Positions 1 through 64,000 of a stretch of DNA of 64,000 nucleotides are shown here, piece by piece. The stretch is from Bacilli bacterium. GTDB lineage: Bacteria; Bacillota_I; Bacilli_A; RF39; UBA660. The notes beneath the pieces were generated by a model. The model was given only the letters and a program-made list of their open reading frames with translations. It did no database searches and was not told the DNA's origin. Where the stretch lies: the NCBI GenBank assembly GCA_028693275.1, contig JAQUVS010000003.1, positions 6,046 to 70,045 on the forward strand, read 5' to 3'. A program made the translations under genes and the position numbers. The stretch's first letter is position 1, and each line of letters begins with the position of its first letter.

Positions 1-146
1 TTGATTTTGAAAATATTATAAATCAGCTAAATGATTAAAGAAAAAGATTATAAATAATCTTTTTTTCTTTATATTATATGGAATTTCTTGTATTTTATAT
101 TTATATTTGCTATGATAAGATTATGTATTTTAAAGGAGGACAATAT

Positions 147-1145
147 ATGAAGAAAATACTACCTTTGCTACTTATAACTACTTTATTCGTAACTGGTTGT
201 GGTGTAGCAAAACTTGAAAATGGTCAAGATGCTGTTGTTAAATTAAAAGGAGAAGATATCTCTGCTGATAAGCTATATGATCAATTAAAAGATAAGTATG
301 CAGTTAATGTACTTATTGATATGATTGATAAGCAAATTCTTGCTAAGGAATATAGTTCTGATGAAGTAAAAGAAGAAATAGAATCAAAAGTTCAATCACA
401 AATTGATAGTTGGTTAGAAAATTTCGGAGATGAAGCTACTTTATTAAAACAAACTTCTAGTTACTTTGGTGTAAGTACTATGGATGGATTAAGAGAATAT
501 CTTAATTTACAATTCTTAAGAACTAAGGCTGCTGAAGATTATGCTAAAACATTAGTAACTGATAAAGAAATTAAAAATTTCTATGATGAAACTATCTTTG
601 GAGACATTGAAGCAAGTCATATTTTAATTAAAGCAGATACTAAAGATGGTATGACTGATGAAGAAACTAAAGCTGCTGAAGCTAAAGCTTTAAAAGAAGC
701 TAAATCAATAATCGAAAAATTAAATAAAGGTGAAGATTTTGCTAAGTTAGCTAAAAAATATAGCGATGATGAAGGAAGCAAAGAAGATGGTGGAGAATTA
801 GGTTACTTCACACATGGTAAAATGGTTGCTGAATTCGAAGAAGCTGCAGTTGATTTAAAAGTTGGTAAATATACTACTGAACCTGTTAAGAGTTCATTTG
901 GTTACCATATAATTCTTAAAACTAATCAAAAAGAAAAAGCTTCTTTAGATAAAGTTAAGAGTGATATAATTGATGAAATTTCAGCTGATAAAATAGAAGC
1001 TGATTCTACTATAAATATTGATGCTATGGTTGAATTAAGAAAAGAATACAAAATTAGTTTTGAAGATTCTGACTTAAAGAAAAAGTATGAAGCATATATA
1101 GAAAGTTCAATTTCTAGTGCTAAAGAAACAGACGCAGCAAAATAA
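147..1145 (+). CDS. prsA: PrsA-like foldase lipoprotein (parvulin-type peptidyl-prolyl isomerase)
   Basis: RBS AAAGGAGGA ends 6 nt before ATG at 147; signal peptide plus lipobox LFVTGC; length and composition typical of PrsA; ORF-track start at 78 lacks RBS. Confidence 0.7.
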   Translation: MKKILPLLLITTLFVTGCGVAKLENGQDAVVKLKGEDISADKLYDQLKDKYAVNVLIDMIDKQILAKEYSSDEVKEEIESKVQSQIDSWLENFGDEATLLKQTSSYFGVSTMDGLREYLNLQFLRTKAAEDYAKTLVTDKEIKNFYDETIFGDIEASHILIKADTKDGMTDEETKAAEAKALKEAKSIIEKLNKGEDFAKLAKKYSDDEGSKEDGGELGYFTHGKMVAEFEEAAVDLKVGKYTTEPVKSSFGYHIILKTNQKEKASLDKVKSDIIDEISADKIEADSTINIDAMVELRKEYKISFEDSDLKKKYEAYIESSISSAKETDAAK

Positions 1146-1149
1146 AAAA

Positions 1150-1180
1150 ATAAGTACTTCATTAGAAGTACTTTTTATTT
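1150..1180. terminator. Bidirectional rho-independent terminator between prsA and recX
   Basis: hairpin AAGTACTTC-atta-GAAGTACTT flanked by A-run upstream and T-run downstream. Confidence 0.6.
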
Positions 1181-1912
1181 ATCATAAAAACCATTTTGAT
1201 ACATTTTTTGTTTTATTTTATATTCAAGTTCTTTATCTTTATATTTTTTTGATAATTTTTTTAATTGTTTTTCATATTCTTTTTTATATAAATCTTCATC
1301 ATTATAATTAAATTTTTCTAATGATGAAATTATCTTTTCTTTTTCATAACCTAAGTTTAGTAAGTACATTTCTATTTTTCTTTTTAAGATAACTCCTGAT
1401 TTATTTTTATTAATTTTTATCATTTTATTTATTATCTTGTCAATTCTTTCATATTGTAATTCATCAGAATAAACTTTAATCTTTTCAAGTATATTATCTT
1501 CAGAAAAACCATTTTGTTTTAATTCTTGTTTTATTTTTTCAGGGCCATATGAACTTAAATTTATTTTATCATGAATAAATGCTTCAATATAATGATTGTT
1601 ATTTAAGTACCCATTATTTTCTAGAATACTTGTAACTTCTTCAATATCTATATTGGAATATTCCTTTTTCTTTAGATATTCAGATATTTCTTTTTTACTT
1701 CTCATTTTTATAGAAATATACTTTAGAGCTACTTCATAAATTTCATATTTTTTGTTTTTTTCTATTAATTCATAAAGTACTTCATTTGATATTTCTTTAT
1801 TTATTATTAGTTTATATTCTAAAATTAAATCTTCATGTAGTCTATACTTTTTTTCATCAATATTTAGAATATACATTCCATTTCTACCTTTAGTGAATTT
1901 CTTGATTGTCAT
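1175..1912 (-). CDS. recX: RecX-family regulatory protein
   Basis: 245 aa with three-repeat helical architecture and RecX-like motifs (RSKKEISEYLKKK...GYLNNNHYIEAFI...GPEKIKQELKQNG). Confidence 0.6.
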   Translation of the reverse strand: MTIKKFTKGRNGMYILNIDEKKYRLHEDLILEYKLIINKEISNEVLYELIEKNKKYEIYEVALKYISIKMRSKKEISEYLKKKEYSNIDIEEVTSILENNGYLNNNHYIEAFIHDKINLSSYGPEKIKQELKQNGFSEDNILEKIKVYSDELQYERIDKIINKMIKINKNKSGVILKRKIEMYLLNLGYEKEKIISSLEKFNYNDEDLYKKEYEKQLKKLSKKYKDKELEYKIKQKMYQNGFYDK

Positions 1913-1963
1913 TAAATCACCTTCTTATAATTATATTATAACTAAAAAAAGATTAATATCAAA

Positions 1964-2164
1964 TTAATCTTTTTTTAAAGTCAATAAACCTTCTGAAACT
2001 TCTTCAAGAGCACGTCCAATATTTTTTCTTGATACATATTTATTAAGAGGCATTTGATAGTGAGATGTTCTTGACATTTCTTTACTTCTCTTGCTTGCAA
2101 TATGAACTAGTCTATATTTAGAGTCTATTGTATTCAACATTTTATCTATTGATGGATATATCAC
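1964..2164 (-). CDS. rpoZ: DNA-directed RNA polymerase subunit omega
   Basis: 66 aa; conserved omega motif DSKYRLVHIASKRSKEM. Confidence 0.8.
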   Translation of the reverse strand: MIYPSIDKMLNTIDSKYRLVHIASKRSKEMSRTSHYQMPLNKYVSRKNIGRALEEVSEGLLTLKKD

Positions 2165-3580: not shown

Positions 3581-5341
3581 TTATTTTTCTATATTTGTCC
3601 ATTTACTAACGACATTACAATTACTGCTTTGAGGAGCAGGATTAGGCATTTCTACTTTTACTATCATTGGTATTTTAAAAGCATTACCAAAGATTAAACA
3701 ATTACCTATTTGTAATGATTTTTGCTTTTCAATTATCTCATCAGTGATATTTGGAATCATTTTTGTAATATATTCTATATCTCTTGGATGACTCATTTTA
3801 AATATAATGAAATTAGAACATTGTGATAATACTGTTTCTGATAAATCTACTGGTCTTTGAGATATTAGATTTAATATTATACCATACTTTCTTCCTTCTT
3901 TTGATACTCTATCAAAAATATTATATCCAAATAGTCTTTCATCATCATCTTTTTGTACATATCTATGAGCTTCTTCTAAAAATAGATTAAAAGGTACACT
4001 TCCTCTTTCTATTTTTTTAGAAAAATCAAATAATAAATTAGTGAATATTTTTACTATTGCCTTAGCAAAGGCATCATCTATATCTTCTAAATTAATATTT
4101 AATATCTGATATTTTTTTCCATCTTTTATTATAAGATTAGATAGAAATTGATCTAATTTACAAAATTCTCTATAATCAAAAAATTTAGCATTTGGACCTA
4201 TTACTAATTCATGTAATTTTACTTTTAATGATATTGCATCTGCGTAAACATTATTATTACGTAACCAACCTTCTGAAATTAAAGCAAAGTTCAATGATTT
4301 TTCTAAATCTTTTAAATCAAATAATTTTTTTTGTTTTGGTTCATATGAAGATAATTCTGGAGATATATGATTATTTATATATTCAGTTAATAAAACTCTT
4401 TCAGCAAATTGATCTGTTGAGTCTATTAGAAAACATTCATGTAATTTTCTAGTATATCCTATTCCGTGAACTACTGCATTCATATTAAAGAAATCGGTAG
4501 GACAAATATTTAAGATAGAAAATATTTCATCTCTTTTACTTGATGTTCCTTGATTAGAATATAAAACTGTTAATATTGCTGTTGCTATTAAATGATTCTT
4601 ATATTTTTCTGATATATCATCTGATTGAGCAAAAATATTAGCTAATTTTAAAGTTTTTTCTATTATAGATATTTGAGTATGAGTATTAGCTGACAATATT
4701 AATGCTAAATCATTTACTCCAAGAAGCCATAAAGGTATTCTTAATAGATCTCCCTTATATGGACTATTTTCGTTAGTTGTTATAAAACGATAATTATAAT
4801 TAGGATTTATTTCATTTATTCTAGAGAATGAAGCATTATATTCACCTGTTGAATCAAATATTATAAAATTAGATCTATATGGAATAAAATTTGGAATATA
4901 AAATACATTTTGTAATAATCTTGCTACTCCACATGATTTACCACTACCAGTATTCCCAAAAATAGCCATATGATTACTAAATAAATCATTCATACTTGAA
5001 TATACTACTTTGTCATTATAGAACGGACTTTCCCCCATATTAATGAATCCATATTTGTTTTCCCCAACAATTAGTGGAAGTTCATTTTCTTCTAGTAATC
5101 TTATTGTTGCATCAGGATTTGGCTTTCTAAGTATTCCTCCAACAAAATTGTTATTAATAATTTCACCTAATAATCTTATTGTTGCTTCGTCTTTATTACA
5201 TTCTACTACTTCTCCAAGTAGTTTCTTACTATTGTCTTCAATTACTAAAGGCATGCTCATTATTTCAGGTTTTATTTCATTATTTTCAATTAAAGTTACT
5301 TTTATGCTTTTTTCAGCAATATTAATTATTTTACCAAACAT
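3581..5341 (-). CDS. HerA-like (DUF87) P-loop ATPase, paralog 2
   Basis: HAS-barrel-like N-terminus; Walker A FGNTGSGKSCGVAR; Walker B FLEEAHRY; ISQRP arginine-finger motif; about 55-60% identical to neighbour 5350..7113; RBS GGAGGA overlaps the neighbour's stop. Confidence 0.7.
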   Translation of the reverse strand: MFGKIINIAEKSIKVTLIENNEIKPEIMSMPLVIEDNSKKLLGEVVECNKDEATIRLLGEIINNNFVGGILRKPNPDATIRLLEENELPLIVGENKYGFINMGESPFYNDKVVYSSMNDLFSNHMAIFGNTGSGKSCGVARLLQNVFYIPNFIPYRSNFIIFDSTGEYNASFSRINEINPNYNYRFITTNENSPYKGDLLRIPLWLLGVNDLALILSANTHTQISIIEKTLKLANIFAQSDDISEKYKNHLIATAILTVLYSNQGTSSKRDEIFSILNICPTDFFNMNAVVHGIGYTRKLHECFLIDSTDQFAERVLLTEYINNHISPELSSYEPKQKKLFDLKDLEKSLNFALISEGWLRNNNVYADAISLKVKLHELVIGPNAKFFDYREFCKLDQFLSNLIIKDGKKYQILNINLEDIDDAFAKAIVKIFTNLLFDFSKKIERGSVPFNLFLEEAHRYVQKDDDERLFGYNIFDRVSKEGRKYGIILNLISQRPVDLSETVLSQCSNFIIFKMSHPRDIEYITKMIPNITDEIIEKQKSLQIGNCLIFGNAFKIPMIVKVEMPNPAPQSSNCNVVSKWTNIEK

Positions 5342-5349
5342 AAATCCTC

Positions 5350-7113
5350 CTACTCCTTAGCTATCCATCTGTTATAAACATCAGCATTACTACTTTCAGG
5401 TAATGGATCTGGTAATTCCATTCTAATAATTGTTGGAATTCTAAATGCCTTACCAAAAGCAACACAATTTCCTATTTGCAGAACTTTTTGTTTATCTACA
5501 ATTTCAGAATTTATGTTTGGAACCATTTTCTTTATGTATTCAACATCTCTAGGATGGTTCATTTTAAAAATTAAGAAATTAGAACATTGTGATATAACTG
5601 TATCTGAAATTTCTACTGGTCTTTGTGAGACAAAAGTCATTATTACTCCGTACTTTCTTCCTTCTTTCGAAATTCTTTCAAAGATATTATATCCTAATAA
5701 TTCTTTATCTCTATCTTCTTGTATATATCTATGTGATTCTTCTATTACAATATTAAATGGAATAGATCCTCTATTTTCTAGGTTTTTAGAAAATTCAAAT
5801 GTTATTCTACAAAATATTTTTACTAAAACTTTAGCAAAAGAATCATCTACATCTTCTAAGTTAAAATTTATTATTTGGAATTTTCTTCCATCTTCTGAAA
5901 ACAACATATCATGTAAGTATTCTCTTTTATCTATAAATTTGTCCAATTTAAAGAATCTAGAATATCCACCTATTACTAAATTATGAAGTTTAACTTTAAG
6001 AGTAATAGCATCACCATATGTATTCTTATTTCTTAGCCATCCTTCACTAATAAGAGTAAAGTTAAGGGCATCTTCCAAGTCTTCTAATGTAAAATAATGT
6101 AATCCTTTAGGTTCAAAAGTATCAAATTCTTCTTTTATGAATGAACCTATATATCTTGTTATTAATACACTTTCTGAAAACTGACCATTGGAATCAATGG
6201 CAAAACATTCTCTAAAATTTCTACTATAACCCACTCCTGTGATATCAGTTTCCAAATTAAGGTTATATGTATGGCATGATTCTAATATAGTAAAAATATC
6301 ATTTCTTTTACTCGCTGATGTTTCATTTGAATAAAGAATGCTCATTAAAGCTTTTGCGATAAGATGATCTTTAAAATCTTCTGTTTTTACATCAGGGGAA
6401 GCAAAGATATTAACTAATTGAACTGTTCTTTCAATTAGAGGAATTTGTGAGTGATTTGTTGCATTTAATAAAAGAGCAATATCATCTATACTTAATAACC
6501 AAAGAGGTATTTTTAGTTTTTCTACATCATCAACTATTTCACTACTTGTTGAATATAAATTATAGTGGTAATTTGGATTTATTTCATTTATTTTTGAAAA
6601 AGCTGTTTTATATTCTCCAGTTGAATCAAAAATTATAAAATTTGCATTAAATGGCAAAAACTCTGCTGTTTTAAAAACATTTTGGATTATTCTTGCTACA
6701 CCACATGATTTACCACTACCAGTATTTCCAAAAATAGCCATATGATTACTAAATAAATCATTTACCCTAGCTCTAATTGGATAACCATTATAAATCGGAC
6801 TATATCCTAGTAAAATTGAGTCTTTTGAATTTTCTGCAACTAAAAGAGAAAATTCTTCACTTGTTATTATTCTTACATTGGAGTTTAAACTTGGTTTTCT
6901 AATTATTCCACCTACAAAACCATTATTTACAATTTCTCCAAGAAATCTGGTACCTACAGTGTTTTCATCCATGTCTTCTATTTCGGCTATTATTTTTTTT
7001 TCTTCATCTTCAAACAAAACATGTAAATTCATTAAATCTTTATTTAATGAAAGAGCATCTGATATTTTTACTTTTGCACCAGTATCACTAATATATGTTA
7101 TTTTATCAAACAT
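5350..7113 (-). CDS. HerA-like (DUF87) P-loop ATPase, paralog 1
   Basis: Walker A FGNTGSGKSCGVAR; Walker B VIEESHRY; VSQRP motif; RBS AGGGGAA; starts 18 nt after ylxM stop. Confidence 0.7.
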   Translation of the reverse strand: MFDKITYISDTGAKVKISDALSLNKDLMNLHVLFEDEEKKIIAEIEDMDENTVGTRFLGEIVNNGFVGGIIRKPSLNSNVRIITSEEFSLLVAENSKDSILLGYSPIYNGYPIRARVNDLFSNHMAIFGNTGSGKSCGVARIIQNVFKTAEFLPFNANFIIFDSTGEYKTAFSKINEINPNYHYNLYSTSSEIVDDVEKLKIPLWLLSIDDIALLLNATNHSQIPLIERTVQLVNIFASPDVKTEDFKDHLIAKALMSILYSNETSASKRNDIFTILESCHTYNLNLETDITGVGYSRNFRECFAIDSNGQFSESVLITRYIGSFIKEEFDTFEPKGLHYFTLEDLEDALNFTLISEGWLRNKNTYGDAITLKVKLHNLVIGGYSRFFKLDKFIDKREYLHDMLFSEDGRKFQIINFNLEDVDDSFAKVLVKIFCRITFEFSKNLENRGSIPFNIVIEESHRYIQEDRDKELLGYNIFERISKEGRKYGVIMTFVSQRPVEISDTVISQCSNFLIFKMNHPRDVEYIKKMVPNINSEIVDKQKVLQIGNCVAFGKAFRIPTIIRMELPDPLPESSNADVYNRWIAKE

Positions 7114-48800: not shown

Positions 48801-51635
48801 CTATTTAGCCACTATGTTTACTATTCTATTTTTAATTACTATTACTTTTACTATTTCTTTTTCTTCTAAATGTTTTTGTACATTTGAGTCACTTAAAGCT
48901 TTTTCTTTTATTTCTTCTTCAGTATCATTAATTGCACAAATAATAGTTCCTCTTAATTTACCATTTACTTGAACAGCTATTTCTTTTTCTTCATCTATTA
49001 TTTTTTCTTCATCATATGTTGGCCATGCTGATTCACATAAAGGATTTCCTAAATGATTAATTTCATTTAATTCTTCTGTTATATGAGGAGCTATAGGATT
49101 TAATAAAGTAAGTAGTGTTCTATAGTCTTTTTGACTTATTTCTTCTTTATCAGTCATTTCATTAGTTAATATCATTAAAGCAGAAACTGCTGTGTTAAAT
49201 TTCATATTATCTATGTCTTCTGTGACTTTTTTTATTGTTTTATTAATTATCTTTTCTAAAGAAGATGAGTATTCATCTGAGTTATTTAATTTGTCTTGTA
49301 ATTTAATAACTTTATCTAAGAATCTTCTACAACCATTTAGACTTTGTTCGCTCCAAGCAGCTTCTTTTTCATAGTCTCCTATAAACATTTCATAGCATCT
49401 TAGTGCATCTGCTCCTTGTTTTTTTACAACGTCATCGGGATTTATAACATTACCCTTAGACTTAGACATTTTTTCTCCACCTTCACCAAGAATCATTCCG
49501 TGGGCTACTCTTGTCTTAAAAGGTTCTTTGTAAGGAACTAATCCAATGTTATATAGGAATTGATTCCAGAAACGAGCATATAATAAGTGTCTTGTAGCAT
49601 GTTCCATTCCACCATTATACCAATCAAGTTGTCCCCAATAATTCAATGCTTCTTTTGAAACAAATTCTTTATCATTTTTAGGATCCATGTATCTTAACCA
49701 GTACCAAGAAGATCCAGCCCAGTTAGGCATTGTATCTGTTTCTCTTTTAGCTGGTTTTCCGCATTTAGGACATGTTGTATTTACCCAACTTTCTATTTTA
49801 GCAAGTGGACTTTCACCATCATCTGTTGGTTCATACTCAGCTACATCTGGTAATAAAACAGGAAGGTCTTCTTCTTTAACTGGAACCCATCCACATTCAT
49901 CACAACATACTAAAGGTATTGGTTCTCCCCAGAATCTTTGTCTTGTAAATATCCAATCTTGTAATTTATAATTTGTTTTCTTATAACCGATTCCTTCTTT
50001 TTCTAAATACTCTAACATTTTATTTATAGATTCTTTTTTATTTGTTAAACCATTTAAGATACCAGAATTAACCATTTTGCCGTCTCCAGCATAATAATTA
50101 TTTTCTGCTAGTAAATTTCTGAATGTAGTAATATGTAATTCATCTTTTACTTCTTTTTCTATTATTTCTCTTGATACCCATTCAATTTCAAATTTACCTT
50201 TTTCGTCTTCATCAAGATTATTTGTTTCTTTCTTATCAGAAATAAGTTTAAATAATAATCCAATACTTTCTATTTCATAAGCTTTATTCTTATTATAAGC
50301 AAAATAATGATGATTAATTGGACTAATTTCTTTGATAAATCTAATATCTGTGTATCCAGTTTCTTCTTTTATTTCTCTTACAGCTGTTTCTAATGCAGTC
50401 TCATTATCTTTTCTTGTTCCCCCAATAAATAATCTTCCACCTAATTCTTTCCAATTAAGAGTTAAATATTTATTATTTTCTTCGTCATAAATAACTGCTA
50501 CTATACTATTTTTTTGTTCTTCATTTTCTCTTTGTTCACCAGTTATTTGTTCTATAACAGGGATTATTTCTATATTAAATTTACTTGCAAATTCATAGTC
50601 TCTATCATCATGTGCTGGAACAGCCATAATAGCTCCTGTTCCATAGTTCATCATAACATAATCTGAAATATAAATAGGAATTTCTTTATTTGTAATAGGA
50701 TTAATAGCTGTTAATCCATCAATTCTCACACCAGTTTTTTCTTTTGTCATATTTAATCTTTCAAATTCTGTTTTGAAATTTGTTTTTTCTCTATAATCTA
50801 TTATTTCATTCATGTTGTTTATTATTCCACTATATAGGTCTATATATGGATGTTCTGGGGCTATTACCATGAAAGTAACTCCATATAAAGTATCTGGTCT
50901 TGTTGTATATACTTTTAATTTTTCATCTATTTCTTTAATTTTAAAATCTACTTCTGCTCCTGTTGATTTTCCTATCCAATTGATTTGAGCAGTTTTTATT
51001 CTTTCTTGGAAGTCAGTCTCATCTAAACCTGTTATTAAGTCTTCTGCATAGTCTGACATTCTTAGTACCCATTGGTCTTTTTCTTTTTGAACTACAACTG
51101 ATCCACATCTTTCACAAGTTCCTCCGCTAGAATCTTCATTTGATAAACCTGTTTTACAATTAGGGCACCAGTTTATACTTTTTTTAGCTTTATATGCCAT
51201 ATCGTGTTCATAAAATTTAATAAATTGCCATTGAGTCCATTTATAGTATTCTGGATCAGTAGTAGAAAATTCTCTACTCCAATCAAATGAAATACCAAGA
51301 TCTTTTATTTGTCCCTTAAATGTTTTTATGTTTTCAGCTACTGCTTCTTTAGGATGAATATGATTTTTAATAGCATATTGTTCTGCTGGAGCCCCAAAAG
51401 CATCCCATCCCATTGGAAATAATACATTATATCCCATCATTCTTTTCTTTCTTGCCATTGTATCAATTGCTGTATAGCTTCTTACATGACCAACATGTAA
51501 TCCAGATCCAGATGGATATGGAAATTCTACAAGATAAAAATATTTTTCCTTATCACTATTATTTTTTGCAACAAAAGTATTATTATCATCCCAATATTTT
51601 TGCCATTTTTTTTCTATATCATTTATTGTCATCAT
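48801..51635 (-). CDS. leuS: Leucyl-tRNA synthetase carrying an inserted Nudix hydrolase domain
   Basis: HVGH and KMSKS motifs, CP1 editing domain; about 150 extra residues including a perfect Nudix box between ...IPVIEQI and AGDGKMVNSG; terminator hairpin AGTGGCTAAATAGCCACT + T-run at the 3' end. Confidence 0.95.
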   Translation of the reverse strand: MMTINDIEKKWQKYWDDNNTFVAKNNSDKEKYFYLVEFPYPSGSGLHVGHVRSYTAIDTMARKKRMMGYNVLFPMGWDAFGAPAEQYAIKNHIHPKEAVAENIKTFKGQIKDLGISFDWSREFSTTDPEYYKWTQWQFIKFYEHDMAYKAKKSINWCPNCKTGLSNEDSSGGTCERCGSVVVQKEKDQWVLRMSDYAEDLITGLDETDFQERIKTAQINWIGKSTGAEVDFKIKEIDEKLKVYTTRPDTLYGVTFMVIAPEHPYIDLYSGIINNMNEIIDYREKTNFKTEFERLNMTKEKTGVRIDGLTAINPITNKEIPIYISDYVMMNYGTGAIMAVPAHDDRDYEFASKFNIEIIPVIEQITGEQRENEEQKNSIVAVIYDEENNKYLTLNWKELGGRLFIGGTRKDNETALETAVREIKEETGYTDIRFIKEISPINHHYFAYNKNKAYEIESIGLLFKLISDKKETNNLDEDEKGKFEIEWVSREIIEKEVKDELHITTFRNLLAENNYYAGDGKMVNSGILNGLTNKKESINKMLEYLEKEGIGYKKTNYKLQDWIFTRQRFWGEPIPLVCCDECGWVPVKEEDLPVLLPDVAEYEPTDDGESPLAKIESWVNTTCPKCGKPAKRETDTMPNWAGSSWYWLRYMDPKNDKEFVSKEALNYWGQLDWYNGGMEHATRHLLYARFWNQFLYNIGLVPYKEPFKTRVAHGMILGEGGEKMSKSKGNVINPDDVVKKQGADALRCYEMFIGDYEKEAAWSEQSLNGCRRFLDKVIKLQDKLNNSDEYSSSLEKIINKTIKKVTEDIDNMKFNTAVSALMILTNEMTDKEEISQKDYRTLLTLLNPIAPHITEELNEINHLGNPLCESAWPTYDEEKIIDEEKEIAVQVNGKLRGTIICAINDTEEEIKEKALSDSNVQKHLEEKEIVKVIVIKNRIVNIVAK

Positions 51636-51993
51636 TTTTATCATTTCTCTCTTTCTTTATTATGTTTGCAAGGATGTTAAACGAAACTAAAATTATAGGT
51701 ATTAATATTACAAATCCTACTATCATTTGTAGTACAGGATTTTCTATTACAGAAATAATAGTTACTACGATAGATACATCTAAAGCAACCATTTTTGCTA
51801 TTTTTTCCATTACTTTTTTACCATTAATCTTAGATAAATCTAGTTTATATTTGTATACTAAAAACTGTAATTCTATAGGTGTTTTCTTTTTATCACTCTT
51901 TTTATATTTTCTAACATAAAGTATATAGTATAAAAAATATACACTTAAAAATGTGAGTAAGAATAAAATACCTTTGTCATATAAATCTTTCAT
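51619..51993 (-). CDS. Small two-TM membrane protein encoded between the leuS T-box leader and leuS
   Basis: RBS GGAGGAGAGG 7 nt before ATG 51993; two hydrophobic helices with a basic loop; 3' end overlaps the leuS start. Confidence 0.45.
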   Translation of the reverse strand: MKDLYDKGILFLLTFLSVYFLYYILYVRKYKKSDKKKTPIELQFLVYKYKLDLSKINGKKVMEKIAKMVALDVSIVVTIISVIENPVLQMIVGFVILIPIILVSFNILANIIKKERNDKNDDNK

Positions 51994-52014: not shown

Positions 52015-52211
52015 AAAAGATTATTCATCACATAAGGACGAATAATCGCGGTACCACCTTAATTCATAGAAATATTTTCTATGCACTTAAATCTTTAACG
52101 CTGAAGAGCGTTGTACTTAATTAGAAAGCAAGTTCATATAATAATATTCTTAGTTTTCACCATCCACTAAGTCTCTTGAAATATTATTTATACTAATACT
52201 CTTTCAGGTAC
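52015..52211 (-). promoter_or_regulatory. T-box riboswitch leader of leuS (Leu specifier CUU)
   Basis: minus strand shows AGAGA box, specifier ...UGAACUUGC..., T-box AATTAAGGTGGTACCGCG, terminator identical to the tyrS leader, T-run. Confidence 0.8.
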
Positions 52212-52218
52212 AAGTTAT

Positions 52219-58717: not shown

Positions 58718-58808
58718 TATACATTACATGTGTAAAGTAAAAATATATTTTTATTAATATCAGTTGTTAACTGGTATTTTTTTGTTATACTTAAAAAAAG
58801 GAGGATTT

Positions 58809-59900
58809 ATGAATCGTAAAATAAGAATTGTTCAATATGGAACAGGGAAAATGTCTATTTATACTATGAGATATGCTATTGAAAAAGGAGCTGAAATCGT
58901 TGGTGCAATAGACGTTAATCCTGATATTATTGGAAAAGATGTTGGTGAGGTTATTGGTTTAGGTAAAACTGGAGTATTAGTTTCTAGCGCTGAAAACGCT
59001 AAGGAATTACTAACTAGTCTTAAACCTGATGCTTGTATTGTTACAACAATGAGTCTTTTAAATGATCTAGAAAATCCATTAATGATGTGTGCTGAATTAG
59101 GAATTAATGCTATTACAACTTGTGAAGAAGCATTTTATTCATTTAATTCAAATCCAGTTTTAACTGAAAAAGTTAATCAATTAGCAAAAAAGAATGATTG
59201 TACTATTGCCGGTAGTGGATATCAAGATATTTTTTGGGGTTCTCTAGTAAGTGATTTAGCTGCTTCTACACATAAGATTACTAAAATTAAAGGTAGTTCT
59301 TGGTATAATGTAGAAGAATACGGAATTGCTTTAGCTAAGGCTCATGGAGCAGGATTAACTATTGAAGAATTTAATAAAGAAATAGCAAGTGCCGATGCTA
59401 TTTCAGATGAAGATAGAAATACCTTAATTAATTCTGGTAGTTTTTTACCTTCTTATATGTGGAACGTTAACGGTTGGCTATGTAAGAAGTTAGGATTAAC
59501 AGTTAAAACTCAAACACAAAGATGTGTTCCTCAAACTCATACTGAAGATATTGATTCTTCTACATTGGGAATGACTATTAAGTCAGGAATGGCTACAGGA
59601 ATGAGTGCTGTTGTTACAACTGAAACAGAAGAAGGAATAACTCTTGAAACTGAATGTGTTGGTAAAGTTTATTCTAGTGAAGAATTTGATATTAACGAGT
59701 GGACAGTAATGGGAGAACCAGAAACTACTCTTGTGATAAAGAGACCATCAACAGTAGAATTGACTTGTGCAACTGTTGTTAATAGAATACCAGACCTTAT
59801 AAATGCAAGAAGCGGTTTCATTGCTACTTGCGAAATGGATGAATTAAAATATAGACCTAAATCATTAGAAAAATATGTTAATGAACTTCCAATTATATAA
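58809..59900 (+). CDS. NAD(P)-dependent dehydrogenase with DapB-like N-terminal fold (amine dehydrogenase / 2,4-diaminopentanoate dehydrogenase-like)
   Basis: RBS AAAGGAGGA before ATG 58809; Rossmann N-terminus KIRIVQYGTGKMS. Confidence 0.45.
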   Translation: MNRKIRIVQYGTGKMSIYTMRYAIEKGAEIVGAIDVNPDIIGKDVGEVIGLGKTGVLVSSAENAKELLTSLKPDACIVTTMSLLNDLENPLMMCAELGINAITTCEEAFYSFNSNPVLTEKVNQLAKKNDCTIAGSGYQDIFWGSLVSDLAASTHKITKIKGSSWYNVEEYGIALAKAHGAGLTIEEFNKEIASADAISDEDRNTLINSGSFLPSYMWNVNGWLCKKLGLTVKTQTQRCVPQTHTEDIDSSTLGMTIKSGMATGMSAVVTTETEEGITLETECVGKVYSSEEFDINEWTVMGEPETTLVIKRPSTVELTCATVVNRIPDLINARSGFIATCEMDELKYRPKSLEKYVNELPII

Positions 59901-59901
59901 A

Positions 59902-59940
59902 AATAGAGAGCTAAATTAAGCTCTCTATTTTTTTATTTTT
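59902..59940. terminator. Bidirectional terminator
   Basis: hairpin AATAGAGAGCT-aaatta-AGCTCTCTATT followed by T-run; overlaps the stop of 59925..60524. Confidence 0.6.
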
Positions 59941-60524
59941 ATTAAGTTATCTCCAAAACATATATTTATATCATAATTATCAAGTGTAGTTTGTTTATCA
60001 ATCTCAGTTATTAACCATATATTTTCTGTTTGGTTAGGTTTAATACTAACAATTGTTGTTAATCTATTGAGTACTCCTTCTTTCTTTAATTGAAGAACTG
60101 TTGTACTATTATAATTTTTTTCTTCATTATTTAAAATGATATTTGGTTTACAAAGTGTAGAACCATCTCCATCTAGTTCTAAGGAATTCAATTCTATACT
60201 ACCAATATTATTCATTGTAAGATCAATTTTTAAGTATTTTTTACCTAAATTATTTTCATATTTTACTACATTTGTATATTGAGGTAATGGTGCCTCTATT
60301 TTATCTTCTATTGATATACTATTTATAGTTACATTAGCAGCTATTTCTTCATCGTTATATATTCCTTTTATAGTTTTATTAGTATTAAGTGCTAATTGAG
60401 AATATTTTTCAACATCATCTGATGCATATGAAGTTGAATTACTACTACTTATTACTATATATACTCCTAGTAATAGTAAAGTTAAAACAATTATGGAAGT
60501 TCCTAAATATTTTATTATTTTCAT
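59925..60524 (-). CDS. Hypothetical secreted/membrane-anchored protein
   Basis: N-terminal hydrophobic signal anchor; 4-nt overlap with fhs. Confidence 0.4.
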   Translation of the reverse strand: MKIIKYLGTSIIVLTLLLLGVYIVISSSNSTSYASDDVEKYSQLALNTNKTIKGIYNDEEIAANVTINSISIEDKIEAPLPQYTNVVKYENNLGKKYLKIDLTMNNIGSIELNSLELDGDGSTLCKPNIILNNEEKNYNSTTVLQLKKEGVLNRLTTIVSIKPNQTENIWLITEIDKQTTLDNYDINICFGDNLIKIKK

Positions 60525-62101
60525 GATAAACCTCTTATATTACCATCTTCATCTATTTTTATTAACTCATAATTTGGATTTTCTGGTAGTCCTGGCATTG
60601 TTATAATATCATTTAAATATACAACAATCATTTTTGCTCCGTTTAGTACTTCTATCTTATTAACTTTTATTTCATCTTCAGAAATTTTATATTGTTTTTT
60701 AGCTATACAAATTGGATAATTATATTTATCTAAATCTTTCATTTGATTTTCAATATTATCTTCATAAATTATATTTGAATTATTATAGATATTTTTACAA
60801 ATGGATTCTATTTTCTCTTTTGTAGTTAGATTATTATCATATAAATAATTAAAATCATTTTCTTTTTTAGATAATTCAATTACCTTTTTTGCTAATTTAA
60901 TAGAACCTTTTCCACCTAATGTATATGATTCACATATTTCAAAAGCTACTTTTTGTTTTTTACATAAATCTCTAATACTTTTTATTTCTATTTTAGTATC
61001 TGTACTATATTTATTTAAAGTTACAATTATATTATTTTGAAATTGTTTTAATATTTTAATATGGGCTTCTAAGTTTTTAAGTCCTTTTTTTAATTCTCTA
61101 TGGTGTTTCTTTAAAATGTCTTCTTTTTTTATTCCAGCATGATATTTTAAAGCTTTTGTAGTTACTACTAAAACTGTTACATCGGGTTTAATATTAGCTA
61201 TTTTACATTTGATGTTATAAAATTTTTCTGCGCCTAAATCAGAACCAAATCCAGCTTCTGTTATTACATAATCAGAAATATCTAATCCTATTTTTGTAGC
61301 CATTATGCTACTACAACCATGGGCAATATTTGCAAAGGGTCCTCCATGGATTATGATTGGATTATTTTCTAAACTTTGTACTAAGTTAGGATGGAAAGCT
61401 TCTTTTAGAATAACTGCTAAAGAATCATCAATATTTAAATCTTTTGCATAGATTGGTTCTTCTTTATCGTTATATCCTACTATTATATTCTTTAATCTGT
61501 TATGTAAATCATTAAAGTCATTTGCTAGAGTAAAAATAGCCATAATTTCACTTGCTGCGGTTATTGTAAAAGTTGTTTTTTTATTATTTATTTCTACTTC
61601 TCTTAAACTTCTATCATTAACATCAAGACATCTTTTTACAGAGACTTTCTTTATATTTAATTTATTACCATTATATATATGATTATCAACAGCTGCACAA
61701 AGAAGGTTATTTGCGGAAGTTATTGCATCTATATCTCCATTTAATCTTAGATTTATATCAGCCATTGGATTAGCTTGAGAATATCCTCCTCCAGTAGCAC
61801 ATCCTTTAAAACCAAATACAGGTCCTCTAGAGGGTTCTCTTAGTGAAACTATAGATTTATACTCCATAGTATTAATTGCATCGTTTAATCCTATTGTAAC
61901 AGTTGTTTTACCTTCTCCATAAGGACTTGGACTAATTGCTGTTACTAGAATTAGTTTACCATCTTTAGATTTAGTATGATTTTTTATTTTACCTTTATAT
62001 TTTCCATATAATTCTATATCATCTTCCTCTAAATTGATTTTCTTACCTATTTCAGTTATTGGTAACATTATTGCATTTTTGCTTATATCAAGATCATTCA
62101 T
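60521..62101 (-). CDS. fhs: Formate--tetrahydrofolate ligase
   Basis: conserved FTHFS blocks LILVTAISPSPYGEGKTT and REPSRGPVFGFKGCATGGGYSQ. Confidence 0.85.
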   Translation of the reverse strand: MNDLDISKNAIMLPITEIGKKINLEEDDIELYGKYKGKIKNHTKSKDGKLILVTAISPSPYGEGKTTVTIGLNDAINTMEYKSIVSLREPSRGPVFGFKGCATGGGYSQANPMADINLRLNGDIDAITSANNLLCAAVDNHIYNGNKLNIKKVSVKRCLDVNDRSLREVEINNKKTTFTITAASEIMAIFTLANDFNDLHNRLKNIIVGYNDKEEPIYAKDLNIDDSLAVILKEAFHPNLVQSLENNPIIIHGGPFANIAHGCSSIMATKIGLDISDYVITEAGFGSDLGAEKFYNIKCKIANIKPDVTVLVVTTKALKYHAGIKKEDILKKHHRELKKGLKNLEAHIKILKQFQNNIIVTLNKYSTDTKIEIKSIRDLCKKQKVAFEICESYTLGGKGSIKLAKKVIELSKKENDFNYLYDNNLTTKEKIESICKNIYNNSNIIYEDNIENQMKDLDKYNYPICIAKKQYKISEDEIKVNKIEVLNGAKMIVVYLNDIITMPGLPENPNYELIKIDEDGNIRGLS

Positions 62102-63899
62102 ATTTTGACCTCCTTTTAATAATTAATTTTATTAAAATTATTAAGATAAAATATACAATTTCTATTGTTAAGTAAATAAATATATTTTTAATATCTATTA
62201 AGTAAAGTATAAACAAGAATATTTTCAATAATATATATGTCAAAATATTAGTTTTTATTCCTATGGAATATTTTTTACTTGCTATAAATAATTGTTTTAT
62301 TTTATTTAACCTATTTTCTAATAAGATTATATCATACTTTTTAAGATCATTTTTATTTTTATAGTAACCAAAAGATATATCTACATTTTCTATGATATTT
62401 TTATCTTTTTCTATATCACCAATGTAACCAGTTAAACCCTTAGAGTTTTCATTAATATAATTTAACCAGAATATTTTGTCTTTTTCTTGCAAATTAGAGT
62501 ATTTTTCTTTGATATTTAATTCACTACTTATAGCATTAACTATTCTTTCGTTATCTCCAGAAAAGATTATTGTTTTTATATTTGAATTCTTATTAAAGTT
62601 TTTTATATCTTCTATAACATTTTTTCTTATCTTATCACTAATTTCTATATGTCCTAATAATTCATTATCAACAACTAAATAAATTATTGTTGCTACTTTC
62701 TTAATTTTATTAATAGGAATATTATTTTCTTGCATATAATAACTATTTCCAATTAAGACATTTTTACCCTCTATTTTTACTTTTATTCCTAAGCCTTCTG
62801 TAAATGTATAGTTTTTAATTATTTTTTTATTTATCTTTTGATCATAATAATTCTTAATAGTTATTGCTATATCATTATCACAGTTGAACTCTCCATGTAA
62901 TAAATAATAGAAAAATTTGTCATAGTCTTTAGTTACTACTTTATCTATAGTTAAAATATTTTCAGTTATTATTCCTTTTTTTCTAAAGATAAGGTTCTTA
63001 ATTTTAGAAATTTTATTTATAACATTTATTTTGCTAACAAGTATTTTATTTTTTAATTGATAATTAAAGTAATTTATATAAAGATTTTGAATAAATGTTA
63101 AAATTAGTTTATTATCACTAATTAATAATAAGATCATTATATCTTTTAAATATTCTTTTTCTATATAACTTTCTGTAAGAATAGGGATTATAATATACAT
63201 AGAAACTATAAACTTAACAATAATAGAATAAACTTTACTAAATGTCATAATTTTTTTTAAATTTCTATCATATTCTAAAATTGAATCATATAATTCTTTA
63301 TATGATGAATCTTTATAATCTTCAGTGACTTCAACAGTTATTTTATCCCCAATATTTGTGGATAGAAAGTTTATTCTGTTATCTTTTTCTTTAGTTGATA
63401 TTTTATTATTGTTTAGAAAATTATCTTTTATAAATGCTTTATCTGAAACTAAAATACAATTAAAAGGAATTAATTGATTTTTTAATATTTCTAGATACGT
63501 ATTTTTTTTGATCTTATTGATATTTATTTCTTTAATATTATTTTTTCTAAGAGTAATAATAGTTTTGGTACTAATAATTTTCTTGTATAAATTATTTTTA
63601 TTTTTATTATCTATTATTAGAGTAATTGCTGTATAAAAAATTAGTAAAATATTTAATTGTGCTAGATCCTTTTCTATTAATAAAATTATTATTAAAGGAA
63701 TAATTATTGTATTATTATAATTATATATTTGCTTATCTTTTATACTTTTTATTAATATGTTTAGGACAGTTTTTCCTAATATTATTATACTTATGATAGT
63801 TAATATATTATTCATAAGTGGGTATCCTTTAAATAAAAGAGATACGAGGAATAATTCTATTGCTAAGAGGATAGTTGTTTGTTTTTTTATATTATTCAT
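62094..63899 (-). CDS. Degenerate P1B-type ATPase homolog (catalytic motifs lost)
   Basis: N/P-domain block alignment to heavy-metal ATPases (…TIIFSGDNERIVNAISSELNI… and GYIGDIEKDKN spaced 47 aa apart), but DKTGT is RKKGI, TGES is absent, GDGxND is GDIEKD; multiple TM helices. Confidence 0.5.
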   Translation of the reverse strand: MNNIKKQTTILLAIELFLVSLLFKGYPLMNNILTIISIIILGKTVLNILIKSIKDKQIYNYNNTIIIPLIIILLIEKDLAQLNILLIFYTAITLIIDNKNKNNLYKKIISTKTIITLRKNNIKEININKIKKNTYLEILKNQLIPFNCILVSDKAFIKDNFLNNNKISTKEKDNRINFLSTNIGDKITVEVTEDYKDSSYKELYDSILEYDRNLKKIMTFSKVYSIIVKFIVSMYIIIPILTESYIEKEYLKDIMILLLISDNKLILTFIQNLYINYFNYQLKNKILVSKINVINKISKIKNLIFRKKGIITENILTIDKVVTKDYDKFFYYLLHGEFNCDNDIAITIKNYYDQKINKKIIKNYTFTEGLGIKVKIEGKNVLIGNSYYMQENNIPINKIKKVATIIYLVVDNELLGHIEISDKIRKNVIEDIKNFNKNSNIKTIIFSGDNERIVNAISSELNIKEKYSNLQEKDKIFWLNYINENSKGLTGYIGDIEKDKNIIENVDISFGYYKNKNDLKKYDIILLENRLNKIKQLFIASKKYSIGIKTNILTYILLKIFLFILYLIDIKNIFIYLTIEIVYFILIILIKLIIKRRSKYE

Positions 63900-63956
63900 G
63901 TTATCACCAATCTCCTTATATAAATTATATATTTTTACTGATTAAAAGGCAAATAA

Positions 63957-63980
63957 AAGCGTAGATTAATTCATCTACGC
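63957..63980 (-). terminator. Terminator of a minus-strand gene lying beyond the window end
   Basis: perfect 9-bp stem AGCGTAGAT-taattc-ATCTACGCT followed on the minus strand by TTTTATTTGCCTTTT. Confidence 0.4.
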
Positions 63981-64000
63981 TATCATTAATTTGCTAATAT

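What the first reader, a model, noticed from the sequence alone, without database searches (positions are those of the whole stretch)
62094..63899. P1B-type ATPase homolog retaining the fold-level block structure but lacking every catalytic motif
The C-terminal half aligns block-by-block with the N and P domains of heavy-metal P-type ATPases (…GLGIKVKIEGKNVLIGNSYYMQEN…, …TIIFSGDNERIVNAISSELNI…, and GYIGDIEKDKN 47 aa downstream). The phosphorylation motif DKTGT reads RKKGI, the actuator TGES motif is absent, and GDGxND reads GDIEKD. There are no N-terminal metal-binding domains. The ORF is intact at 601 aa, has multiple TM helices, and overlaps fhs by 8 nt. It is therefore either a recently decaying gene or a non-catalytic membrane pseudo-enzyme.
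Basis: partly seen in the sequence, partly recalled or inferred. Interest (0 to 1): 0.5.

Follow-up and report, generated by a model that had tools for sequence, protein, structure and literature searches.

The report
Dead metal-pump homolog coupled to fhs
This gene encodes a membrane protein that keeps the full shape of a heavy-metal-pumping ATPase but has lost the residues needed to pump; it is kept under strong selection and, in every related lineage examined, sits directly in front of the folate enzyme gene fhs, so it looks like a repurposed "pseudo-pump" of a kind I could not find described.

Summary
ORF 62094..63899 (-) is an intact 601-aa P1B-type ATPase homolog (TIGR01525 E=2.6e-39; ZntA top fold hit, E=3e-32). 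DKTGT reads RKKGI, TGES reads NNNK, CPC reads SDN, HP reads ND and GDGxND reads GDIEKD. It has no HMA domain and overlaps fhs by 8 nt.

It is not decaying. Two 601-aa orthologs (69-71% identity) share every degenerate motif. dN/dS is 0.15-0.19 overall and 0.02-0.06 in the P-domain core, which is tighter than fhs (0.10).

It belongs to a rare, unnamed clade of about 25 representative clusters of dead, HMA-less P1B-like proteins from uncultured low-GC Bacilli. The clade has gained its own signature (YSNL...FW): F477-W478 is in 19-20 of 20 members and 0 of 171 canonical pumps.

In 8 of 8 sub-lineages (25-38% identity) the gene lies directly upstream of an apparently intact FTHFS gene, with spacing of -23 to +9 nt. 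None of 7 canonical relatives, and neither of 2 independently degenerate homologs, does so.

Best reading: a non-pumping, membrane-anchored P/N-domain module co-expressed with FTHFS, probably acting by binding. The pseudoenzyme status is well supported. The FTHFS-linked mechanism is an inference.

The parts
62094..63899 (-). CDS of the degenerate P1B-type ATPase homolog (601 aa plus stop), the first gene of the operon
63570..63899 (-). Residues 1-110: TM helices MA, MB, M1, M2. No HMA domain precedes them.
   Evidence: AF2 secondary structure; dN/dS 0.21-0.25
63306..63569 (-). Residues 111-198: A (actuator)-domain beta structure. TGES is replaced by NNNK (residues 163-166 = 63402-63413).
   Evidence: dN/dS 0.15-0.22
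63045..63305 (-). Residues 199-285: M3-M4. The M4 CPC metal site is replaced by S-D-N (residues 261-263 = 63111-63119).
62700..63044 (-). Residues 286-400: first half of the P domain plus the N domain. RKKGI replaces DKTGT (306-310 = 62970-62984) and HP becomes ND. E337, G371 and G384-N385 are retained.
   Evidence: dN/dS 0.10-0.15
62307..62699 (-). Residues 401-531: P-domain core, the most constrained part. It holds SGDN (447-450), the clade signature YSNL...K475..F477-W478 (467-478 = 62466-62501) and GDIEKD (494-499 = 62403-62420).
   Evidence: 88-94% identity among orthologs and dN/dS 0.02-0.06; FW in 19-20/20 clade members vs 0/171 canonical
62097..62306 (-). Residues 532-601: M5-M6 and a basic C-terminal tail. 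M5 K559 and M6 E580 are kept. The last codons (K-R-R-S-K-Y-E) contain the fhs Shine-Dalgarno AAAGGAGG (62109-62116) and the fhs ATG (62099-62101).
63924..63952 (-). Promoter-like site TTGCCT-17-TATAAT, joint-best score (10/12) in the region scanned and the one placed just upstream of the ATG. It is followed by SD AAGGAG (63912-63917) and the ATG at 63899.
   Evidence: consensus match only
63958..63981 (-). Terminator-like hairpin plus T-run that ends the upstream gene. That gene is an S41/CtpB-like peptidase in the orthologous loci and lies outside this window.
60521..62101 (-). fhs (formate-tetrahydrofolate ligase, 526 aa), overlapping the upstream gene by 8 nt. It looks catalytically intact.
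   Evidence: NF010030 660 bits vs cutoff 652; full-length alignment to PDB 7xzn at E=3e-152 with GEGKTT, HGGPFANIAHG, EAGFGSDLGAEKF and MPGLP intact
59925..60524 (-). orf199: third gene of the apparent operon, overlapping fhs by 4 nt. It has an N-terminal TM/signal anchor and no family hit, and is present only in the window's own sub-lineage.
59899..59932 (.). Bidirectional terminator-like hairpin that closes the pATPase-fhs-orf199 unit

Best explanation
The gene encodes a conserved, catalytically inert descendant of an HMA-less Zn/Cd-type (P1B) ATPase. It keeps the 8-helix membrane domain and the A, P and N domains as a scaffold. It has lost the aspartyl-phosphate nucleophile (D->R), the A-domain TGES dephosphorylation loop, the M4 CPC metal site, the N-domain HP and most of the Mg2+-binding hinge, so it cannot run an E1/E2 pumping cycle. 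It is transcribed from its own promoter as the first gene of a pATPase-fhs(-orf199) operon, with the fhs ribosome-binding site embedded in its last codons. The functional part is the cytoplasmic P/N module, especially the P-domain core carrying the clade-specific YSNL...FW patch. The membrane domain mainly serves as an anchor. The most likely mode of action is binding: the module docks or regulates a partner, most plausibly the co-translated FTHFS, and may still sense a nucleotide or phosphate ligand. Shown: homology, fold, motif loss, purifying selection, clade membership, and the invariant fhs adjacency. Inferred: catalytic inactivity, the operon, and the role of the P domain as the functional surface. 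Speculative: physical or functional coupling to FTHFS.
For: Homology and fold. Motif loss shared by all three orthologs. Purifying selection: dN/dS 0.15-0.19 against fhs 0.10 and orf199 0.13-0.16; by domain, P core 0.02-0.06, N/P1 0.10-0.15, A 0.15-0.22, TM 0.26-0.30. Wider clade: the exhaustive profile search places degenerate ~570-610-aa proteins as the best hits after the protein's own cluster. An NJ tree puts 20 of them in one clade made up only of degenerate members. Gained signature: F477 in 20/20 and W478 in 19/20 clade members vs 0/171 canonical. All invariant clade residues lie in the P/N domains and none in the TM or A domains. Gene context: FTHFS lies immediately downstream on the same strand, with spacing of -23 to +9 nt, in 8/8 sub-lineages. 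It is absent next to 7/7 canonical relatives, one of which follows an ArsR-type repressor, and next to 2 non-FW degenerate homologs. Operon signals. The partner FTHFS looks intact. Retained nucleotide- and phosphate-pocket residues (E337, G371, G384-N385, K307, S447, D449, K475).
Against: There is no experimental or expression data. Inactivity is inferred from sequence only. The family loci share other neighbours (S41 peptidase, DUF421, a DAP-dehydrogenase-like gene), so all members probably descend from one bacterial lineage, and part of the fhs adjacency could be inherited synteny and not functional coupling. A co-fold of the pair could not be run. No riboswitch or shared regulator ties the gene to folate metabolism. 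The NJ tree is crude and long-branch attraction is possible, although the FW signature argues against it. The TM helices are still under purifying selection (omega about 0.3) and a K(M5)/acidic(M6) pair is kept in about half of the members, so a membrane-level function is not excluded.
Confidence: 0.5

Rival explanations
1. It is a conserved pseudoenzyme, but its function is unrelated to FTHFS. The adjacency would be an operon arrangement inherited within one uncultured Bacilli lineage, and the protein would do something else at the membrane, such as envelope or proteostasis scaffolding alongside the nearby S41 peptidase or ClpB-like genes.
For: Partial synteny beyond the pair is conserved: S41 peptidase upstream in at least 5 lineages, and DUF421 or a DAP-dehydrogenase-like gene downstream in several. 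No regulatory RNA links it to one-carbon metabolism.
Against: Between lineages only about 50% identical in housekeeping proteins, the flanks have been reshuffled (ClpB-like and small ORFs inserted upstream; orf199, PGK, DUF421 or RsmB downstream), yet the pATPase-fhs junction stays at -23 to +9 nt in 8/8. Independently degenerate P1B homologs are not next to fhs.
Confidence: 0.28
2. The dead pump has become a passive conduit or facilitator, for formate or for a cation that FTHFS needs. The membrane domain would be the functional part and would supply the downstream enzyme.
For: A transporter-then-enzyme operon makes sense. All 8 TM helices are retained with confident modelling. TM omega of about 0.26-0.30 is still purifying. 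An M5 Lys/Arg is kept in 13/20 members and an M6 acidic residue in about 11/20.
Against: No TM residue is invariant or nearly invariant across the clade. The M4 site is replaced by unrelated residues in each sub-lineage. The TM/A half is the fastest-evolving part, undetectable by BLAST between most lineages, while the cytoplasmic P core is the most constrained.
Confidence: 0.12
3. It is still an active, highly divergent transporter that uses non-canonical chemistry.
For: The fold, the SGDN motif, K475, D495/D499 and the N-domain glycine motifs are retained. Some clade members keep Glu at the nucleophile position and an HP motif.
Against: In the window protein the nucleophile is Arg, and TGES, CPC, HP and the hinge Asn are all gone at once. 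Across the clade the nucleophile position varies (E, R, T, S, A, N, I, D), which is incompatible with a conserved catalytic role. All curated P-type ATPase HMM cutoffs are missed by a wide margin, for example 135 vs 346 bits.
Confidence: 0.04
4. It is a recently decaying gene or strain-specific pseudogene that happens to be still open.
For: Multiple motif losses; local GC of 17-20%; a 'hypothetical protein' label in NCBI.
Against: Three orthologs have identical length and no frameshifts at dS of about 1, with dN/dS 0.15-0.19 (0.02-0.06 in the P core). The degenerate motifs are identical in all three, and the clade is old and diversified.
Confidence: 0.02

Closest known systems
P1B-2 (Zn/Cd/Pb) ATPases such as ZntA and CadA; the nearest sequences are HMA-less ~606-aa Bacilli pumps (P0004-P0006)
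   Same: Same 8-TM + A/P/N architecture. It is the best sequence and fold match. The retained M5 Lys and M6 acidic residue correspond to the canonical M5 Lys and the M6 'ADVG' Asp; I recall these as K693 and D714 of ZntA, but that numbering is from memory and was not checked here. SGDN, K475 and the N-domain glycine motifs are also shared.
   Different: The nucleophile Asp, TGES, CPC, HP and the intact GDGxND are all missing. There is no ArsR-type repressor or metal-resistance context as seen for P0004. It is coupled to fhs instead and has the gained YSNL...FW signature.
KdpB in KdpFABC (a P1A ATPase that works only as part of a complex)
   Same: A structurally related small prokaryotic P-type ATPase (Foldseek E of about 1e-25). 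It is a precedent, from general knowledge, for a P-type ATPase whose role is defined by a partner protein and not by its own ion path alone.
   Different: KdpB is catalytically active with an intact DKTGT and partners a channel-like subunit. Here the protein is inert and the candidate partner is a soluble folate enzyme. No complex has been shown.
HAD-superfamily pseudophosphatases, and P4-ATPase-like domains fused to apicomplexan guanylate cyclases (recalled from general knowledge, not verified here)
   Same: The concept of a HAD or P-type fold kept for binding or regulation after catalytic residues are lost.
   Different: Different subfamilies, organisms and architectures. No bacterial P1B example turned up in the literature searches.
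Other degenerate P1B-like proteins of low-GC Firmicutes seen here (L004 Erysipelotrichaceae ORF 26..1975; P0184)
   Same: They also lack DKTGT, TGES, CPC and GDGxND while keeping an intact ORF and the fold-level blocks.
   Different: They lack the FW signature, fall outside the clade and are not next to fhs. They look like independent losses.

Membership tests
P1B-type (heavy-metal) P-type ATPase | Overall architecture: 8 TM helices (MA, MB, M1-M6) with A, P and N cytoplasmic domains | tested here: met
   AF2 model pLDDT 81. Foldseek top hits are ZntA, CopA, ATP7B and CadA at E of 1e-25 to 1e-32. Full-length HMM alignment.
P1B-type (heavy-metal) P-type ATPase | DKTGT motif with the phosphorylated Asp | tested here: not met
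   It reads R306-K-K-G-I, and is identical in all 3 orthologs.
P1B-type (heavy-metal) P-type ATPase | A-domain TGE(S) dephosphorylation loop | tested here: not met
   It aligns to N163-N-N-K; no TGE occurs anywhere in the protein.
P1B-type (heavy-metal) P-type ATPase | M4 CPx/xPC metal-binding motif | tested here: not met
   It reads S261-D-N.
P1B-type (heavy-metal) P-type ATPase | GDGxND hinge (Mg2+/phosphate ligands) and TGDN | tested here: inconclusive
   GDIEKD keeps G494, D495 and D499 but loses the second Gly and the Asn. SGDN is retained.
P1B-type (heavy-metal) P-type ATPase | N-domain HP dipeptide plus GxG nucleotide pocket | tested here: inconclusive
   HP becomes N-D. E337, G369xG371 and G384-N385 are retained.
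P1B-type (heavy-metal) P-type ATPase | Score above curated family cutoffs (TIGR01525, TIGR01512, Pfam E1-E2_ATPase and Hydrolase) | tested here: not met
   135.5 vs 346 bits; 91.9 vs 313.5; 26 vs 28.1; 25.6 vs 26.4.
P1B-type (heavy-metal) P-type ATPase | ATP-driven metal transport | not testable with these tools
   Needs biochemistry.
Pseudoenzyme (general definition) | Clear homology to an enzyme family, with loss of essential catalytic residues | tested here: met
Pseudoenzyme (general definition) | Maintained by purifying selection and conserved in several lineages | tested here: met
   dN/dS 0.15-0.19 overall and 0.02-0.06 in the P core; a clade of about 25 representative clusters.
Pseudoenzyme (general definition) | Experimentally shown lack of catalysis | not testable with these tools
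   Inference only.
fhs-linked 'FW' clade of dead P1B-like proteins (defined here) | F477-W478 two to three residues after the conserved Lys, plus the Y467-S468-N-L motif | tested here: met
   Present in the window protein. 19-20/20 clade members vs 0/171 canonical.
fhs-linked 'FW' clade of dead P1B-like proteins (defined here) | About 570-610 aa, no HMA domain, with TGES, CPC, nucleophile Asp and GDGxND all absent together | tested here: met
fhs-linked 'FW' clade of dead P1B-like proteins (defined here) | FTHFS gene immediately downstream on the same strand | tested here: met
   8-nt overlap in the window; 8/8 sub-lineages.

The most novel reading that the evidence does not exclude
The FW-clade protein is a dedicated membrane partner of formate-tetrahydrofolate ligase. 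It would be a pump fossil whose nucleophile-less P-domain pocket and FW patch recruit or regulate FTHFS at the membrane, for example by sensing ATP/ADP or an acyl-phosphate such as formyl phosphate, or by coupling formate entry to 10-formyl-THF synthesis. That would be the first bacterial pseudo-P-type ATPase with a defined non-transport role and a previously unknown layer of control of one-carbon metabolism.
Probability: 0.2. Interest if true: 0.8.

Novelty: new variant of a known kind. Interest (0 to 1): 0.62.

Why it matters
P-type ATPases are a textbook case of a strictly conserved catalytic cycle. Seven full-text searches of the held literature library turned up no description of a bacterial pseudo-P-type ATPase. 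Here there is a clear case: an entire clade has kept the fold for a long time without the chemistry. The strongest constraint lies on the cytoplasmic P domain, and the gene is invariantly coupled to a central one-carbon enzyme. If the coupling is functional, it points to an unknown way of organising or regulating formate assimilation in an uncultured group of low-GC Bacilli, and it provides a natural 'catalysis-free' P-type scaffold for studying what else the fold can do. Practically, it warns annotators that weak P-type ATPase or HAD hits in these genomes should not be read as metal transporters.

Tried and rejected
1. GTDB genome scan with the ortholog alignment. The tool picked poor N-terminal patterns and returned only a canonical pump (L003) and an unrelated degenerate homolog (L004), so no taxonomy was gained.
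2. Deep word-indexed search with the clade alignment. It returned only relatives of the first sequence and no new clade members.
3. Search with P0207. It found a few more members but no source names. The taxonomy of the clade beyond NCBI's 'Bacilli bacterium' label remains unknown.
4. Metagenome contig scan. The first attempt failed for lack of a conserved stretch. The second returned only canonical pumps, which I used as negative controls.
5. Cluster look-up for names: none.
6. AFDB fold library: unavailable.
8. Riboswitch or leader search upstream of the pair in the window and 9 loci: nothing.
9. Literature searches for pseudo or degenerate P-type ATPases, FUPA families and an fhs/P-type ATPase operon: nothing relevant.
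10. YN00 dN/dS failed numerically for most pairs, so NG86 values are reported. dS is near 1, so the absolute omega values are approximate.
11. Considered and rejected: pseudogene, alternative genetic code artefact (neighbouring ORFs are intact under table 11), and active pump.
Full report
**Observation**

It overlaps the downstream fhs gene (60521..62101) by 8 nt.

The relationship to heavy-metal P-type ATPases is not a chance resemblance:
- NCBIfam TIGR01525 aligns residues 85-568 at E=2.6e-39.
- ZntA (PDB 4umv) aligns residues 111-588 at E=5.6e-13.
- An AlphaFold2 model (pLDDT 81, pTM 0.70) shows eight TM helices, a beta-rich A domain and a P/N module.
- The best structural matches in the PDB are ZntA, CopA, ATP7B and CadA, at E of 1e-25 to 3e-32.

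Every curated cutoff is missed (135 vs 346 bits for TIGR01525; Pfam E1-E2_ATPase 26 vs 28.1; Hydrolase 25.6 vs 26.4). That is why NCBI labels the protein 'hypothetical'.

**Motif status**

From the residue-level alignments:

| Canonical motif | Window protein | Residues |
|---|---|---|
| FDKTGT | FRKKGI | R306 at the nucleophile position |
| TGES | NNNK | 163-166 |
| CPC (M4) | S-D-N | 261-263 |
| HP (N domain) | N-D | 342-343 |
| GDGIND | GDIEKD | 494-499 |

There is no HMA domain. SGDN, the conserved Lys K475, G494/D495/D499, and N-domain E337, G369xG371 and G384-N385 are all retained.

**Not a decaying gene**

Among 5.8 billion clustered proteins there are two close orthologs, P0002 (71% identity) and P0003 (69%), both exactly 601 aa. 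They carry the same degenerate motifs letter for letter and sit in the same context: S41 peptidase, this gene, fhs with an 8-nt overlap, then orf199.

Pairwise Nei-Gojobori dN/dS at dS of about 0.8-1.2:
- this gene: 0.15-0.19
- fhs: 0.10
- orf199: 0.13-0.16

By domain:
- P-domain core (residues 401-531): 0.02-0.06, tighter than fhs itself
- N/P1: 0.10-0.15
- A domain: 0.15-0.22
- TM helices: 0.26-0.30

So the protein is maintained by selection, and most strongly in the half of the P domain that no longer has a nucleophile to serve.

**A wider clade**

An exhaustive profile search of 1.84 billion representatives scored the protein's own cluster at 1145 bits, then dropped to 221 bits. Most of the best-scoring hits after its own cluster are themselves degenerate. 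They are 570-610-aa, HMA-less proteins in which TGES, CPC, the Asp nucleophile and GDGxND are all missing together. The nucleophile position reads E (most often), R, T, S, A, N or I.

A distance tree places 20 of them, including the window protein, in one clade made up only of degenerate members. Long-branch attraction is a concern. However, the clade also shares gained residues that canonical pumps lack:
- F477 in 20/20 and W478 in 19/20, against 0/171 canonical sequences.
- Invariant Y467-S468 and S447.

Five shorter fragments carry the same FW signature, giving about 25 of the top 150 representative clusters. Every invariant or near-invariant position of the clade lies in the P or N domain, and none in the TM helices or A domain. 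Between sub-lineages the TM/A half is usually undetectable by BLAST, while the P core keeps 33-44% identity. Members are rare (1-6 sequences per 90% cluster), all from metagenomes or MAGs, and unnamed.

**Gene context**

I looked up contigs for seven further sub-lineages (25-38% identical to the window family). In every one the degenerate gene is immediately upstream of an FTHFS gene on the same strand:

| Sub-lineage | Spacing to fhs |
|---|---|
| window family | -8 nt |
| P0091 | 0 nt |
| P0067 | -14 nt |
| P0207 | -23 nt |
| P0063 | +9 nt |
| P0058 | -8 nt |
| P0213 | +7 nt |
| P0130 | +2 nt |

Controls:
- The nearest canonical relative, P0004, follows an ArsR/HTH_5 repressor, the classic metal-efflux arrangement, and is nowhere near fhs.
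- Six further canonical relatives are not next to fhs either.
- Two independently degenerate, non-FW homologs (the L004 ORF and P0184) are not next to fhs.

The partner FTHFS proteins are somewhat short (493-541 aa). The three scored reach or come close to the curated FTHFS equivalog cutoff (660, 675 and 610 bits vs 652). The window FTHFS aligns full-length to solved FTHFS structures with the P-loop and other hallmark segments intact, so it looks like a working enzyme.

In the window itself:
- A terminator-like hairpin (63981-63958) ends the upstream gene.
- A promoter-like site with the joint-best score in the region (63952-63924) and an AAGGAG Shine-Dalgarno precede the ATG.
- The fhs Shine-Dalgarno AAAGGAGG lies inside the last codons (K-R-R) of the ATPase homolog.
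- The next terminator is the bidirectional hairpin after orf199 (59899-59932).

This is the layout of a co-transcribed, translationally coupled operon.

**Caveat on the linkage**

The family loci share other neighbours: the S41 peptidase upstream, and DUF421 and a DAP-dehydrogenase-like gene downstream. The clade was therefore probably inherited vertically in one bacterial lineage, and part of the adjacency may be historical. Two points argue against that being the whole story. The lineages are only about 50% identical in S41 and FTHFS. The flanks have been reshuffled, with ClpB-like and small ORFs inserted upstream and different genes downstream, while the pair itself is never separated. No riboswitch precedes the pair in any locus.

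**Mechanism**

What is shown:
- the fold and the motif losses
- the selection pattern
- clade membership
- the fhs pairing

What is inferred:
- The protein cannot form an aspartyl-phosphate or bind a soft metal in M4, so it does not pump.
- The cytoplasmic P/N module is the functional part and the membrane domain mostly an anchor.
- The FW pair occupies positions two to three residues after the conserved Lys. These positions are polar in real pumps, and here they form a new aromatic surface suited to binding.

What is speculative:
- The partner is the co-translated FTHFS.
- The retained pocket residues (K307, S447, D449, K475; N-domain E337, G371, G384-N385) still bind a nucleotide or phosphate-bearing ligand.

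I put about 0.9 on 'conserved catalytically inert P1B derivative', about 0.5 on a functional link with FTHFS, and about 0.3-0.4 on docking or regulation as the specific mode.

Rivals:
- Pseudoenzyme with a role unrelated to fhs: about 0.28.
- Passive conduit for formate or a cation: about 0.12. It is disfavoured because no TM residue is conserved across the clade.
- Divergent active pump: about 0.04.
- Decaying pseudogene: about 0.02, refuted.

**Comparison with known systems**

The protein is homologous to Zn/Cd-type P1B ATPases and shares their fold. It fails the family's defining catalytic features, so I do not file it as a P1B ATPase in the functional sense. Seven full-text searches found no description of a dead bacterial P-type ATPase or of an fhs/P-type ATPase pairing. 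This is absence in the held library only. I classify it as a new variant of a known kind: a pseudoenzyme branch of the P1B family with its own signature and genomic association.

**Limits**

- The co-fold could not be run.
- The taxonomy of the clade is unresolved beyond 'Bacilli'.
- dS is near saturation, so the omega values are approximate.
- The tree is distance-based.
- Nothing here is experimental.

Noticed in passing
window 48801..51644 (-): The 947-aa LeuRS has a significant Pfam NUDIX hit (PF00293, E=4.3e-10, 40 bits vs cutoff 21) at residues 380-495, directly after the CP1 editing domain (222-377). That is an unusual insertion for a leucyl-tRNA synthetase. A T-box leader lies upstream at 52031-52212.
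   Followed up: no
L004 26..1975 (+) (CAMFRJ010000160.1, MAG uncultured Erysipelotrichaceae): A different 649-aa degenerate P1B-like ORF: 'DRFDGI' for DKTGT, 'IDGSDV' for TGES, 'MAGSNAY' for CPC, 'GDCDKD' for GDGIND. It has an N-terminal extension, no FW signature and no fhs neighbour, so it looks like an independent loss of catalysis.
   Followed up: partly
L022 4798..6648 and L023 5001..6851 (P0184): A third type of degenerate P1B homolog (VFTKTGIIT; AGNYKTDEE for GDGxND; no FW). It sits in a cell-surface/polysaccharide-type cluster (CARDB, DUF5305, epimerase, UDPGP, sulfatase) and not next to fhs. Dead P1B homologs seem to have arisen repeatedly in low-GC Firmicutes.
   Followed up: partly
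P0083 (774 aa; no locus fetched): An FW-clade member whose N-terminal TM/A region is replaced by about 360 aa that, by eye, resemble a secreted glycoside hydrolase (GH84-like; no domain search was run). This is either a real fusion or an assembly chimera.
   Followed up: no
window 58764..59900 (+); L006 14108..15184; L019 6953..8029; L021 6903..7991: The DAP-dehydrogenase-like gene (DapB_N/DAP_DH_C) near the operon is 73-75% identical between lineages whose FTHFS and S41 peptidase are only about 50% identical. It is either unusually constrained or was recently exchanged.
   Followed up: no
window 59925..60524 (-): orf199 overlaps the end of fhs by 4 nt, has an N-terminal membrane anchor and no hit in Pfam or NCBIfam. 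It is conserved (77-81% identity, dN/dS 0.13-0.16) only in the window's own sub-lineage, as a lineage-specific third gene of the operon.
   Followed up: partly
window 60521..62101 (-) and partner genes in L005-L021: The FTHFS proteins paired with the dead pump are all shorter than the ~557-aa canonical enzyme (493-541 aa). In the window protein this comes from several loop deletions. Three were scored and sit around the curated equivalog cutoff (610-675 vs 652 bits).
   Followed up: partly
window 3581..5341 and 5350..7113 (-): Two tandem ~586-aa paralogs with HerA/DUF87-type ATPase domains (FtsK/TrwB-like P-loop).
   Followed up: no
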